A DNA stretch of 55,283 nt from NCBI GenBank assembly GCA_030038605.1, contig JASHSU010000092.1, positions 1-55,283 on the forward strand, written 5' to 3'. Positions 51,254 through 53,038 of this stretch are shown piece after piece. The position numbers were made by a program, and so were the translations under genes. Within the stretch, counting starts at the first letter, position 1. Each line of letters opens with the position of its first letter. The DNA comes from Thermoplasmata archaeon (GTDB taxonomy: Archaea > Thermoplasmatota > Thermoplasmata > Lutacidiplasmatales > UBA184). The notes beneath the pieces are model-generated. The model was not told where the DNA came from. It made no database searches and was given only the letters and a program-made list of their open reading frames with translations.

Positions 51254-51874
51254 TTGCGTCCGCCCTTCGAAAAGCAACACGTCCGCGTCGTGGGGGTGGA
51301 TGACGGCGCCTTCCGTCGCACCGACCGCTGGGCCCCCGTGGCGGCCGTGGCGGTCGCCGCGCCCGACCGGGTCGAGTCGGTCGCCACGGGTCGGGTGCGC
51401 GTGGACGGGCGCGACGCGACCGAGGTCATTATCCAGCTCGTCCGACGGACCGGCGGGCTCGACGGTCTGCACGCGATCCTGCTGGACGGTGCGGTCGTCG
51501 GGGGGTTCAACGTGGTCGATTTGGACCGCATCCAACGCGCCTTCCGGGTGCCGGTCGTCGCCGTCACATACGCGCCGCCCGACTTCACGAAAATCCGGGC
51601 CGCTCTGCGGACCTGGTTCGGCCGAGATGCGCGCCGACGCTGGGAGCTGCTCCGACGTCACCGACTGTACGCCGTGCCCCCACCGGCGCCGCCCGTGCTC
51701 CTGACCGCGGTCGGATGCCGACGCGCCGATGCGGTCCGCCTCCTCCGCCGCACCGTGGTGCGGGGTCACCGTCCCGAGGTGCTGCGTCTCGCCCACCTCA
51801 TCGCGTCGGCGGGCGACGGCCGGCGCAACCGAAGGGTTATGGGCCGGGGCGCCGGTCGGCCCTCGGGCCTGTAG
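51254..51874 (+). CDS. DUF99 family protein (endonuclease V-like)
   Basis: GVDDGAF, DGRDAT, LDGAVVGGFNVVD, PEVLRLAHLIAS; TTG start is approximate. Confidence 0.85.
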   Translation: MRPPFEKQHVRVVGVDDGAFRRTDRWAPVAAVAVAAPDRVESVATGRVRVDGRDATEVIIQLVRRTGGLDGLHAILLDGAVVGGFNVVDLDRIQRAFRVPVVAVTYAPPDFTKIRAALRTWFGRDARRRWELLRRHRLYAVPPPAPPVLLTAVGCRRADAVRLLRRTVVRGHRPEVLRLAHLIASAGDGRRNRRVMGRGAGRPSGL

Positions 51875-51971
51875 CTTAGCCCGGACCAAGCACTGGCCTT
51901 CTAAGCCAGAGAACTCGGGTTCAAAGGCCCTCGGCGCGCTCCGCCGGGGGCGGAGACTCCCGACAGGCCCG
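51865..51971 (+). tRNA. tRNA-Arg(UCU) with a 32-nt intron at position 59/60 (51926-51957)
   Basis: Acceptor GGGCCTG/CAGGCCC, D stem GCTT/AAGC, anticodon stem CTGGC/GCCAG with loop CTTCTAA, T stem TCGGG/CCCGA, T-loop TTCAAA|T interrupted; GGGTTAT element 25 nt upstream. Confidence 0.93.
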
Positions 51972-51976
51972 CCTAC

Positions 51977-53038
51977 CTACCCGGCCGCTACTTCCGCGGC
52001 GCATTTCGCGCAGAGGATGCCGCGCGTGCCGGGGGCCAGCGGGTCGCCGCAGAGCGGGCACGACGCCCGGGCGTCGGCCGCGGCGATCAGCTCCTGGACG
52101 CTCGTGCGGAGCGCCGGGTGCGTCGTGCTGCCGGCGGAGGGAGCCGCCTCCGTGATCGCCGTCGGCGGAGCGAAGGCGTCCATCCGGGGTCGGTACGTGC
52201 CGGTCCTCCGGTCGAAGCTGGCGAACCCGCGGGCCGCCAAGCCTTGGAGGGCGGAGTCGACCGTCTCGCGGACCCCGCCGAAGACGTGGGACATTTCGAT
52301 GGCGGTCATCCCCTGCGATTCTACGAGGACCGACAGCGAGCGGGCCGCGAGCAGCGGCATGTCGCCCCGGCCGATCACGCGGTCGACGCGCCAGCTCGTG
52401 CGCGCCGTGCGAGGGACCCGTCGGGCCGGTGCGACCCGGCCCGCCCGGAGGTCCGTGAGGAGCGTCGACCGGGCGAGGTCGAGCTCGTAGGCGACGCGCT
52501 CGTCGGCGAAGTAGAGGAGGACGGCGACGGAGAACGGCAGCAAGCCCCGGGTCCGGCACGCCTCCAAACCCTCCGGGAGCGAGCGCATCGTGGTCGGCAG
52601 CGTGACCCGCGGGCCTCCGCTGGCCGCGCGGTCCTCCTCATCCTGGGTCCGGGGCAGGTAGTGTTCACGGAGCAGGAACCGCGCGATCACGTGCGTCGGT
52701 GCGCCCCCGCCGAGCGGGACCACGTCGGCCCCGCCGTCGGCGGCGAACGTCACCCGCTCGAACGGTCGAAGGAACTCCCAGGCTGCGCCGGCCGGCGGCG
52801 GCGACTCCAGGACCAGCTCCAGGGTCTCCCGGCCCGCGGTGGGGTCGGCGACCAGGTCGTAGAAGGTGCCGAACTCCCGTCCGTCCGCCCGCAGCCGGAA
52901 CGCGGCCAGCGGCGTCCGCCGCCGGGCAAGGTACTCCTCGTAGGCCCGACCGAGCGCCCGCTCCGAGAACGAACCGTGCCGCTCGTGGGCGAGTTTGCGA
53001 GCGAGCTCGTCGAGCTCACGCAGCGGTACGACGGCCAT
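51977..53038 (-). CDS. Hypothetical protein with a winged-helix-like segment and C-terminal Zn ribbon
   Basis: MTAIEMSHVFGGVRETVDSALQGLAARGFASFD..TGTY is wHTH-like; CPLC...CAKC at the C-terminus. Start 53038 or 53062. Confidence 0.65.
   Translation of the reverse strand: MAVVPLRELDELARKLAHERHGSFSERALGRAYEEYLARRRTPLAAFRLRADGREFGTFYDLVADPTAGRETLELVLESPPPAGAAWEFLRPFERVTFAADGGADVVPLGGGAPTHVIARFLLREHYLPRTQDEEDRAASGGPRVTLPTTMRSLPEGLEACRTRGLLPFSVAVLLYFADERVAYELDLARSTLLTDLRAGRVAPARRVPRTARTSWRVDRVIGRGDMPLLAARSLSVLVESQGMTAIEMSHVFGGVRETVDSALQGLAARGFASFDRRTGTYRPRMDAFAPPTAITEAAPSAGSTTHPALRTSVQELIAAADARASCPLCGDPLAPGTRGILCAKCAAEVAAG

What the first reader, a model, noticed from the sequence alone, without database searches (positions are those of the whole stretch)
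51865..51971. tRNA-Arg(UCU) split by a non-canonical T-loop intron (59/60) with a relaxed bulge-helix-bulge
Seen: a complete cloverleaf whose T-loop TTCAAA|T is interrupted by 32 nt (51926-51957). The insert folds a 10-bp stem (51927-51936 with 51942-51951, one G-U pair, 5-nt loop). With the exons it gives bulge AA|G (51924-26), a central helix TTCA/GGAG (G-U, U-A, C-G and an A.G mismatch) and bulge AC|T (51956-58). Cutting after the second base of each bulge restores the standard T-loop exactly. Established: non-canonical intron positions and relaxed BHB motifs are typical of Thermoproteales and some DPANN lineages with broad-specificity EndA, whereas euryarchaeal-type homo-oligomeric EndA mostly handles canonical 37/38 introns. 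Inference: this Thermoplasmata-like organism has a broadened splicing endonuclease or acquired the intron or gene laterally. Default tRNA scanners may miss the gene.
Basis: partly seen in the sequence, partly recalled or inferred. Interest (0 to 1): 0.8.

Follow-up and report, generated by a model that had tools for sequence, protein, structure and literature searches.

The report
T-loop intron in tRNA-Arg(UCU) gene
This is a real arginine tRNA gene interrupted by a short intron in its T-loop; the intron is ordinary for its soil archaeal lineage, where about a third of tRNA genes carry one at the same spot although the splicing enzyme is of the type thought to handle only standard introns.

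Summary
Observation confirmed. Window 51865-51971 (+) is tRNA-Arg(UCU) with a 32-nt insert (51926-51957) between T-loop nucleotides 59 and 60. The insert forms a near-canonical bulge-helix-bulge. The T-stem is the outer helix. TTCA pairs with GGAG as the central helix (3 pairs plus A57.G). There are two 3-nt bulges and a 10-bp inner stem.

The intron is inherited, not laterally acquired. The full-length gene is found in 34 of 36 same-genus genomes. Exons are invariant, and 9 of 10 inner-stem pairs show compensatory changes. A TATA-like box is conserved upstream. No intron-less copy was seen.

It is one of 12 such 59/60 introns in this roughly 41-tRNA MAG, which is Lutacidiplasmatales-like and 69.5% GC. 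A covariance model finds 7-14 per genome across the family and 1-5 in many other Thermoplasmata families.

The only EndA is the alpha'2 type, with no specificity-loop insertion. RtcB is present. So a broadened enzyme is not needed for this intron.

However, two conserved D-loop introns in the same genome look relaxed (HBh'), which keeps that idea alive at lineage level. No RNA data were available.

The item is a new member of a known kind. The lineage-wide pattern appears undescribed in the papers I could search.

The parts
51832..51842 (+). TATA-like promoter box (AAGGGTTATGG; TTAT at 51837-51840, 25-28 nt upstream of the tRNA)
   Evidence: sequence. In one search, 27 of 29 orthologous upstream regions have TTAA or TTAT at the same distance; the other two have TTAC or ATAA. 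Promoter function is inferred.
51865..51925 (+). 5' exon, tRNA positions 1-59 (acceptor 5' strand, D-arm, anticodon arm, variable loop, T-stem 5' strand 51915-51919, T-loop 54-59)
   Evidence: Invariant or nearly so in 30 orthologues.
51900..51902 (+). Anticodon TCT (UCU), reads AGA/AGG
   Evidence: ARAGORN call on the in-silico spliced gene.
51920..51923 (+). 5' strand of the central BHB helix H (T54 T55 C56 A57)
   Evidence: Pairs with 51952-51955. U-A/U-G 30 of 30, U-A/U-G 30 of 30, C-G 30 of 30, A.G 30 of 30.
51924..51926 (+). 5' bulge AA|G; predicted cut after 51925
   Evidence: position inferred from the BHB rule (cut after the second bulge base).
51926..51957 (+). Intron, 32 nt, between tRNA positions 59 and 60
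51927..51951 (+). Inner hairpin h': 10-bp stem (51927-36 with 51942-51) and 5-nt loop
   Evidence: fold; 9 of 10 pairs changed on both sides, 96.7% of cells paired.
51952..51955 (+). 3' strand of central helix H (GGAG)
51956..51958 (+). 3' bulge AC|T; predicted cut after 51957
   Evidence: The two intron bases of this bulge vary among orthologues (AC, AG, GC, CA, CG, AT).
51958..51971 (+). 3' exon: T60, T-stem 3' strand 51959-51963, acceptor 3' strand 51964-51970, discriminator G 51971; CCA not encoded

Best explanation
This is the functional, apparently single-copy tRNA-Arg(UCU) gene of a Lutacidiplasmatales-like Thermoplasmata archaeon. It is interrupted by a vertically inherited 32-nt bulge-helix-bulge intron between T-loop positions 59 and 60.

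Proposed mechanism, in order:
1. In the precursor, the conserved T-loop bases T54-A57 pair with the 3' end of the intron (GGAG) to make the central helix.
2. The T-stem serves as the outer helix, and a 10-bp intron hairpin serves as the inner helix.
3. The genome's single alpha'2 splicing endonuclease cuts after the second base of each 3-nt bulge.
4. RtcB joins the exons, and only then can the T-loop and the tRNA elbow form.

Because TTCRA is common to nearly all tRNAs, any intron ending in YGAR-NN can build this motif at 59/60. This explains why 12 tRNA genes of this genome, and 7-14 in every family member searched, carry one there.

Shown: the anatomy, its conservation and covariation, the genome-wide recurrence, and the enzyme inventory. 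Inferred: the cleavage sites, the ligation, and the order of maturation.
For: Anatomy and in-silico splice.

Orthologues:
- 34 of 36 same-genus genomes match over positions 1-107 at 80-95% identity (the count includes the unpublished G019).
- In 30 aligned orthologues the exons are invariant. The inner stem has 9 of 10 pairs changed on both sides, and 0 of 500 shuffles reach the observed measures.
- No intron-less paralogue was found. In same-genus genomes, second hits are either a second full-length copy (G018) or chance GC-rich coding matches.
- Promoter-like box in 27 of 29 upstream regions.

Recurrence:
- 12 T-loop introns of 26-35 nt in the own genome.
- 14 hits in a 100%-complete congener that has 40 Rfam tRNA hits.
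- Family f1: 15 of 15 genomes with 7-14 hits each (includes the unpublished G140).
- The pair between tRNA position 57 and the intron covaries across tRNAs: G-C 7, A-U 3, other 9.

Enzymes:
- One ORF with Pfam layout N-C-N-C.
- 29 of 30 family genomes at >=90% completeness have exactly two adjacent PF01974 hits and no other.
- The catalytic unit aligns to 1a79 over residues 2-169 without an inserted loop.
- RtcB at G000:C68:4399-5703, 571 bits.

Literature (passages read): 59/60 is a listed non-canonical position (PMC4090602), and ARMAN-2 has hBHBh' and hBH introns there (PMC3239211).
Against: - No RNA evidence. No RNA run was available, so splicing is inferred from sequence alone.
- The central helix has an A57.G mismatch next to the 5' bulge in all 30 orthologues. 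The motif is therefore not textbook-strict, and alpha'2 enzymes are described as strict (PMC5829648 and PMC4090602, passages read).
- The thermodynamic fold does not form the 3-bp central helix on its own.
- The MAG is 77% complete, so a second endonuclease gene or a second tRNA-Arg(UCU) in the missing part cannot be excluded for this genome. The fuller congeners show neither.
- AGA is very rare: 34 of 13,906 Arg codons in 430 filtered ORFs. Demand for this tRNA is therefore low.
Confidence: 0.9

Rival explanations
1. One reading: the intron needs an endonuclease with broadened specificity, or the gene or intron came in laterally.
For: - A57.G mismatch in the central helix in 30 of 30 orthologues and in 5 of the 12 T-loop introns of the genome; a sixth has a C.C mismatch.
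- The same genome holds D-loop introns in tRNA-Arg(GCG) and a CAT tRNA that lack the outer helix h (HBh'-like). The Arg(GCG) one is conserved full-length in 29 of 30 family genomes, with a covarying inner stem.
- A. fulgidus alpha'2 EndA is reported not to remove an HBh' D-loop intron efficiently (PMC5829648, passage).
- The structural unit of this EndA is full-size, unlike the shortened one of Thermoplasmatales.
Against: - For this intron, both 3-nt bulges and both flanking helices are present.
- There is no inserted loop relative to the M. jannaschii enzyme, and no second EndA gene in 29 of 30 family genomes.
- Lateral origin is contradicted by full-length conservation across the genus with invariant exons, and by 59/60 introns in tRNA-Arg(UCU) of at least four other Thermoplasmata families.
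Confidence: 0.12
2. Pseudogene, unspliced T-loop expansion or assembly artefact.
For: Default tRNA finders miss or mis-call it. AGA codons are very rare. There is no RNA evidence.
Against: - The same structure is present in 34 independently assembled same-genus genomes.
- Exons are invariant while the intron stem changes by compensatory substitutions.
- The upstream promoter-like box is conserved.
- No other tRNA-Arg(UCU) was found among the 38 Rfam hits of the genome or in the congeners.
Confidence: 0.02
3. The intron is kept for a function beyond being tolerated. Candidate functions: breaking up the T-arm/acceptor 3' segment that integrating elements use as an attachment site, or imposing an order on maturation because the elbow cannot form before splicing.
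For: - Long persistence at the same site in many tRNAs across a family.
- The intron sequesters T54-A57.
- The attachment-site idea is recalled from the literature (Randau and Soll 2008, not seen here).
Against: - Nothing in my calls tests it.
- Sister family f2 has an intron-less tRNA-Arg(UCU), so the intron is dispensable.
- The pattern is equally explained by neutral persistence of a motif that any tRNA can host.
Confidence: 0.2

Closest known systems
59/60 T-loop introns of Candidatus Micrarchaeum acidiphilum ARMAN-2 (pre-tRNA-Pro(GGG) hBHBh', pre-tRNA-Cys(GCA) hBH)
   Same: Same insertion point (59/60) and the same use of the T-arm as part of the BHB. The Pro(GGG) example is a strict hBHBh' (PMC3239211, Fig. 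1 legend read).
   Different: The ARMAN-2 enzyme is the three-unit epsilon2 type with a specific loop and broad specificity. Here it is a loop-less alpha'2. ARMAN-2 has a few such introns; this genome has 12.
Non-canonical tRNA introns of Thermoproteales / Crenarchaeota
   Same: Many tRNA genes interrupted at non-canonical positions, including 59/60, sometimes with two introns per gene (PMC4090602, passages).
   Different: - Those lineages use (alpha-beta)2 EndA with the Crenarchaea-specific loop and many relaxed motifs. Near-identical introns in different tRNAs there point to recent transposition.
- Here the position is almost always 59/60 and the motif is near-strict.
- Here intron cores are mostly unrelated. 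Only His versus Asn stands out, with a score of 15 reached by 3 of 200 shuffles.
Canonical 37/38 BHB introns of Euryarchaeota cut by alpha4 or alpha'2 EndA
   Same: Same motif logic (4-bp helix between two 3-nt bulges, cut after the second bulge base), same enzyme class, same RtcB ligation. This genome also has such introns in Leu(TAA), Met(CAT) and Trp(CCA).
   Different: The position is the T-loop, not the anticodon loop. The exon half of the central helix is the universal TTCR, not the anticodon region. The review statement that Euryarchaeota have under 10% intron-bearing tRNA genes, all at the canonical site (PMC4090602), does not hold for this lineage.
T-arm introns of Asgard archaea
   Same: A 2026 preprint reports that introns concentrate at the canonical site and in the T-arm, and that T-arm insertions often form canonical motifs (10.64898/2026.10.13.758758, passages).
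   Different: Different phylum. That text contains no word beginning 'Thermoplasmat'.

Membership tests
Archaeal strict BHB (hBHBh') tRNA intron | Two 3-nt bulges on opposite strands separated by a 4-bp helix | tested here: inconclusive
   The bulges AA|G and AC|T are present and correctly spaced. The central helix has 3 standard pairs plus A57.G in this gene and in 30 of 30 orthologues. Six of the genome's 12 T-loop introns have 4 of 4 pairs.
Archaeal strict BHB (hBHBh') tRNA intron | Outer helices h and h' of at least 2 bp flank the bulges | tested here: met
   h is the 5-bp T-stem, paired in 30 of 30. h' is a 10-bp stem with 9 of 10 covarying pairs.
Archaeal strict BHB (hBHBh') tRNA intron | Excision at the bulges restores a standard tRNA | tested here: met
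   In-silico removal gives a 77-nt tRNA-Arg(tct) with T-loop TTCAAAT.
Archaeal strict BHB (hBHBh') tRNA intron | Cleaved by EndA and ligated in vivo (spliced junction, free or circular intron) | not testable with these tools
   No RNA data were available. EndA and RtcB genes are present.
Relaxed BHB intron (HBh', hBH or BHL) that needs a broad-specificity EndA | One bulge or one outer helix is missing | tested here: not met
   Both bulges and both outer helices are present in this intron. Two D-loop introns elsewhere in the genome do lack h.
alpha'2 (homodimeric) splicing endonuclease | Two tandem endonuclease units in one polypeptide, with the catalytic Tyr/His/Lys in the C-terminal unit | tested here: met
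   PF02778+PF01974 occur twice in one open frame, G000:C45:17091-18119. The C-terminal unit aligns with 1a79 through FRAY, the His and VRK. Residue numbering of the triad is recalled. The N-terminal unit has Leu at the Tyr position by eye.
alpha'2 (homodimeric) splicing endonuclease | No Crenarchaea- or ARMAN-type specific loop | tested here: met
   The catalytic unit aligns to M. jannaschii EndA over residues 2-169 with only 1-2-residue indels. That M. jannaschii lacks the loop is from PMC5829648 (figure legend).
tRNA-Arg(UCU) | Cloverleaf with 7-bp acceptor, 4-bp D-stem, 5-bp anticodon and T-stems, anticodon UCU | tested here: met
   all four exon helices are 100% paired in 30 sequences.

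The most novel reading that the evidence does not exclude
The Lutacidiplasmatales-like family is an intron-rich lineage of the euryarchaeal type. About 40% of its tRNA genes are interrupted, mostly at 59/60. A single loop-less alpha'2 EndA must process all of these, plus central helices with an A.G mismatch and conserved HBh'-type D-loop introns.

If so, the accepted rule does not hold. That rule says that endonuclease architecture, with its specific loop, sets the range of intron positions and motifs.

The full-size structural unit of this EndA may be what permits it. Families whose EndA shows only one detectable PF01974 domain (f20, f21, most of f15) have no T-loop introns in the genomes searched.
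Probability: 0.35. Interest if true: 0.7.

Novelty: new member of a known kind. Interest (0 to 1): 0.5.

Why it matters
For this gene alone, little changes. It is one more BHB intron at a known non-canonical position, and annotation pipelines that rely on ARAGORN or Rfam will miss or truncate it.

It matters as an entry point to a lineage-wide pattern:
- A widespread soil archaeal order carries T-loop introns in roughly a third of its tRNA genes while having only an alpha'2 endonuclease.
- Reviews state that such enzymes go with few introns, all at the canonical site.
- This gives a natural test set for how strict alpha'2 enzymes really are: 12-14 T-loop substrates per genome, with and without the A.G mismatch, plus HBh' D-loop substrates.
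- It also bears on why position 59/60 is a recurrent landing site.

There is a practical consequence too. tRNA counts used as MAG quality criteria can be underestimated in this group.

Tried and rejected
- **RNA evidence:** The look-up of sequencing runs (kind rna, window 51400-52400) listed no RNA holder.
- **Intron mobility:** four partial BLAST hits to the intron part in congeners proved to be GC-rich coding sequence with no tRNA features. They are no evidence for transposition.
- **Pairwise comparison of the 12 intron cores**: mean score 6.95 against 6.75 for shuffles. Only His versus Asn (score 15, reached by 3 of 200 shuffles) and Glu versus Leu-TAG (score 14) stand out. This is too weak to claim recent spread.
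- **A loose pattern scan for T-loop introns** returned thousands of chance matches and was abandoned for the covariance model.
- **ARAGORN -i without a length limit** gave many false long-intron calls, including a spurious 'Arg(tct)' on C89 that is not a tRNA.
- **An alternative splice register for the Arg(GCG) D-loop intron** (H = GGGG/CTCC, h 3) was rejected. CTCC is not conserved, and it covaries with the 5' strand as part of the inner stem.
- **Literature searches for a prior description of T-loop or non-canonical tRNA introns in Thermoplasmata** found none.
  - The Lutacidiplasmatales paper has no word beginning 'intron'.
  - The Methanomassiliicoccales comparative paper mentions only a group II intron.
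  - Supplementary tables were closed and could hold such counts, for example the per-genome intron table of the tRNAscan-SE 2.0 paper.
Full report
**1.

- Window 51865-51925 carries tRNA positions 1-59: acceptor GGGCCTG, D-stem GCTT/AAGC, anticodon stem CTGGC/GCCAG with loop CTTCTAA (anticodon TCT at 51900-51902), T-stem strand TCGGG and T-loop TTCAAA.
- Positions 51926-51957 are a 32-nt insert.
- Positions 51958-51971 carry T60, CCCGA, CAGGCCC and discriminator G.

That stem is part of the minimum-free-energy structure of the whole precursor (-56 kcal/mol, z -3.07, 1 of 200 shuffles as stable). Removing the 32 nt in a script gives a 77-nt tRNA-Arg(tct) by ARAGORN.

Default tools do fail on the gene:
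- ARAGORN finds nothing in the window.
- ARAGORN -i invents a 2384-nt intron.
- The Rfam tRNA model scores 32.5 bits against a cut-off of 29, with a wrong 3' end.

**2. The motif**

In the layout used by archaeal splicing endonucleases, the parts are:

| Part | Bases | Coordinates |
|---|---|---|
| Outer helix h | T-stem, 5 bp | 51915-51919 with 51959-51963 |
| Central helix H | TTCA with GGAG (U-G, U-A, C-G, A.G) | 51920-23 with 51952-55 |
| 5' bulge | AA\|G | 51924-51926 |
| 3' bulge | AC\|T | 51956-51958 |
| Inner helix h' | 10-bp stem | 51927-36 with 51942-51 |

Both bulges and both outer helices are present. This is therefore an hBHBh' motif with one mismatch, not a bulge-less relaxed form. 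The thermodynamic fold does not form the 3-bp central helix by itself.

**3. Who carries it**

The window is contig C128 of a 1.64-Mb MAG with 163 contigs, 77% completeness and 69.5% GC.

The nearest relatives of its endonuclease are all labelled Thermoplasmata archaeon. They include UBA184, AcS1-67, SubAcS13-64 and AcS4-93 at 66-76% identity. The last three are Lutacidiplasmatales genomes in Table 1 of PMC9287336, whose description (about 69% GC, about 2.1 Mb) fits. I therefore call the organism Lutacidiplasmatales-like.

**4. Inherited and under selection**

A BLAST of the 107-nt precursor against 61 genomes gave these results:
- It found the gene over its full length in 34 of 36 same-genus genomes, at 80-95% identity (one of them, G019, is unpublished).
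- No same-genus genome showed a hit covering only the 5' exon, as an intron-less paralogue would.
- Second hits were either a second full-length copy (G018) or short matches to the intron part. I fetched the latter and found them to be GC-rich coding sequence.

In an alignment of 30 orthologues (A1):
- All four exon helices are 100% paired and almost invariant.
- The inner stem has 9 of 10 pairs changed on both sides and 96.7% of cells paired.
- The three standard pairs of the central helix are kept in 30 of 30.
- The A57.G opposition is present in 30 of 30.
- No measure was reached by any of 500 shuffles, and slid registers fall to 31-53% paired.
- The two intron bases of the 3' bulge vary freely, as expected for a bulge.

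A TTAA or TTAT box lies about 25-32 nt upstream in 27 of 29 orthologues; the other two have TTAC or ATAA. Against a 69% GC background this looks like an archaeal TATA element. That is an inference.

AGA is very rare, at 34 of 13,906 Arg codons in 430 filtered ORFs. The strict conservation is therefore notable.

**5. One of many**

By eye, and then by rule, eleven tRNA genes of this genome have a 26-34-nt insert at the same place: Arg-TCT, Arg-TCG, Gln-CTG, His-GTG, Asn-GTT, Ser-GGA, Ser-GCT, Ser-CGA, Glu-CTC, Ala-GGC and Gly-TCC.

A covariance model (R1) was built from 19 such T-arms. On that alignment (A2), 91.3% of cells are paired and 0 of 500 shuffles reach that figure. R1 finds these eleven plus a twelfth, Leu-TAG at C24:3189-3248. 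All twelve score E <= 8.5e-7, and the next hit is at E 0.36.

The central helix has 4 of 4 pairs in six of the twelve. Five have A57.G, and one (Asn) has C.C. Across tRNAs, the pair between position 57 and the intron covaries: G-C 7, A-U 3, other 9.

The genome has about 41 recognisable tRNA genes. These are the 38 Rfam hits at E <= 1 plus His, Leu-TAG and Trp found otherwise.
- About 29% carry a 59/60 intron.
- Three more have canonical introns: Leu-TAA, Met-CAT and Trp-CCA.
- Three have D-loop introns: Leu-TAG (in addition to its T-loop intron), Arg-GCG and a CAT tRNA.

In a 100%-complete congener (G061) there are 40 Rfam hits and 14 R1 hits.

**6. Distribution**

Class search: 151 Thermoplasmata genomes at E <= 1e-3 (includes the unpublished G140).
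- R1 hits 115 of the 151 genomes.
- The own family f1 is hit in 15 of 15 genomes, with 7-14 hits each (12-14 in the own genus).
- Most other families have 1-5 hits per genome.
- Families f20 (0 of 12), f21 (0 of 2), f15 (0 of 3) and f7 (0 of 1) have none.
- By my count from that table, about 79 genomes have a best E <= 1e-5.
- Weak hits can still be real. G058, at E 2.4e-4, has a clear 46-nt T-loop intron in Arg-UCU.

Check of hits: I fetched 18 hits from 10 families. All show the T-stem/TTCR/bulge layout. After in-silico removal, ARAGORN called:
- 7 clean tRNAs: Arg-TCT x3, Lys-TTT x2, Asp-GTC x2;
- 5 tRNAs with an additional canonical intron;
- 5 long or odd calls;
- 1 with no call.

tRNA-Arg(UCU) across families:
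- Intron-less in f2, f11, f14, f15 and f17.
- A 21-24-nt 59/60 intron in f8.
- A 59/60 intron plus a canonical one in f6 and f26.
- An 11-13-nt mini-insert in f3.

Phylum search (151 genomes, E <= 1e-5): 26 genomes hit. Outside the class there are only one or two hits in each of 9 genomes, and none in f35 (0 of 11), f36 (0 of 8), f41 (0 of 13), f43 (0 of 12) or f50 (0 of 20).

The site is therefore old and widespread in the class, with an expansion in family f1.

**7. The enzymes**

The genome has one endonuclease gene, on C45. Its Pfam layout is N-C-N-C in a single frame, which is the alpha'2 type.
- The best solved relatives are the fused M. kandleri enzyme and A. fulgidus EndA.
- The catalytic unit aligns with M. 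jannaschii EndA over residues 2-169 with only 1-2-residue indels. It keeps the Tyr, His and Lys motifs.
- There is therefore no inserted loop of the kind that gives crenarchaeal and ARMAN enzymes their broad specificity. The loop's role is from PMC5829648, passages.
- In 29 of 30 family genomes at >=90% completeness there are exactly two adjacent PF01974 hits and no other.
- RtcB is present.

**8. Comparison with what is known**

From passages I read:
- Position 59/60 is a listed non-canonical site (PMC4090602).
- ARMAN-2 has both strict and relaxed introns there (PMC3239211).
- Reviews state that Euryarchaeota with alpha4 or alpha2 enzymes have under 10% intron-bearing tRNA genes, each with one BHB intron at the canonical site (PMC4090602).
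- Only (alpha-beta)2 and epsilon2 enzymes are said to remove relaxed introns (PMC5829648).

On that basis this intron needs no special enzyme. What does not fit the reviews is the frequency and position of introns in this lineage.

My four literature searches found no description of this for Thermoplasmata. The Lutacidiplasmatales paper never uses the word intron. The Asgard intron preprint does not mention Thermoplasmat-.

**9. What keeps the 'broadened enzyme' idea alive**

- The A57.G opposition is fixed in this gene, and an A57.G is present in five of the twelve T-loop introns.
- Two D-loop introns lack the outer helix h by my scan: H 4 of 4, h 0, h' 4-5.
- The Arg-GCG D-loop intron is conserved full-length in 29 of 30 family genomes across 7 genera. 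In my alignment (29 loci including the own genome's, with the G140 locus dropped) its inner stem covaries, and the central helix GTAG/CTRC is kept.
- A. fulgidus alpha'2 EndA is reported not to remove an HBh' D-loop intron efficiently.
- The families with no T-loop intron hits (f20, f21, two of three f15 genomes) show only one detectable PF01974 domain, in open frames of about 300 aa. Nearly all others show two, in about 350-360 aa.

These are few and related lineages, so the last point is a lead, not a test.

**10. Verdict**

This is a real, functional, vertically inherited tRNA-Arg(UCU) gene with a near-strict BHB intron at 59/60 (confidence 0.9). It is ordinary within its lineage and belongs to a known kind.

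The lateral-transfer reading is not supported, and the broadened-enzyme reading is unnecessary for this intron.

The lineage-wide pattern deserves a follow-up: about a third of tRNA genes carry T-loop introns, and there are HBh' D-loop introns, all with a single loop-less alpha'2 enzyme.

No RNA data could be obtained, so splicing itself remains inferred.

Noticed in passing
Own genome: G000:C18:4568-4618(+), C24:3364-3422(-), C24:3189-3248(-), C28:9296-9352(+), C42:4615-4671(-), C44:26177-26234(-), C45:28915-28970(-), C88:2713-2767(+), C109:13809-13864(+), C132:6108-6162(-), C134:6247-6304(-): Eleven further tRNA genes carry a 26-35-nt BHB intron at the same 59/60 T-loop site: Arg-TCG, Gln-CTG, Leu-TAG, His-GTG, Asn-GTT, Ser-GGA, Glu-CTC, Ser-GCT, Ala-GGC, Gly-TCC and Ser-CGA.
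   Followed up: yes
G000:C31:9286-9396(-) and G000:C142:24330-24432(+); also G000:C24:3186-3330(-): D-loop introns. Those in tRNA-Arg(GCG) and a CAT tRNA lack the outer helix h (HBh'-like). The one in Leu-TAG is strict (H 4, h 3, h' 9). The Arg(GCG) intron is conserved full-length in 29 of 30 family genomes with a covarying inner stem. The CAT one is full-length in 15 of 30, with only the 3' exon matching in 9 of 30.
   Followed up: partly
EndA genes across 151 Thermoplasmata genomes (G handles): Families with no T-loop-intron hits (f20 0 of 12, f21 0 of 2, f15 0 of 3) have only one detectable PF01974 domain per genome: 12 of 12, 2 of 2 and 2 of 3 respectively, in frames of about 300 aa. Almost all other families have two domains in frames of about 350-360 aa. 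These are few, related lineages; the counts include the unpublished G140.
   Followed up: partly
window 51952 (G opposite A57); alignment A1 column 93: The purine-purine opposition A57.G in the central helix is fixed in 30 of 30 orthologues. Other A57 tRNAs of the genome use U there (Ser-GGA, Glu-CTC, His-GTG). Why G is kept is unexplained.
   Followed up: partly
G000:C28:9296-9352 and G000:C42:4615-4671: The intron cores of tRNA-His and tRNA-Asn share a 15-nt stretch with one difference (local score 15, reached by 3 of 200 shuffles). This is a weak hint of a shared origin.
   Followed up: partly
L125 (G038) and L126 (G040), family f3 of the same order: tRNA-Arg(UCU) has a mini-insert of 13 or 11 nt at 59/60 (TTCA/TGAA central helix, almost no inner stem, so the 5' cut site lies in a loop). 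A further insert lies in the 5' part of the gene.
   Followed up: no
window 51278-51874 (+): The upstream gene encodes an Endonuclease dU domain (PF01949, 166 bits). Its open frame ends with a TAG at 51872-51874, inside the first 10 nt of the tRNA, so the tRNA promoter-like box lies within coding sequence.
   Followed up: no
G000:C120:19249-19410(-): tRNA-Trp(CCA) has an 89-nt canonical intron. This is long enough to hold a box C/D guide RNA as in other archaea (PMC4090602), but I did not test for one.
   Followed up: no
whole own genome: AGA is almost unused: 34 of 13,906 Arg codons, in 26 of 430 high-GC3 ORFs. Yet the tRNA that reads it is invariant in its exons across 30 genomes.
   Followed up: partly
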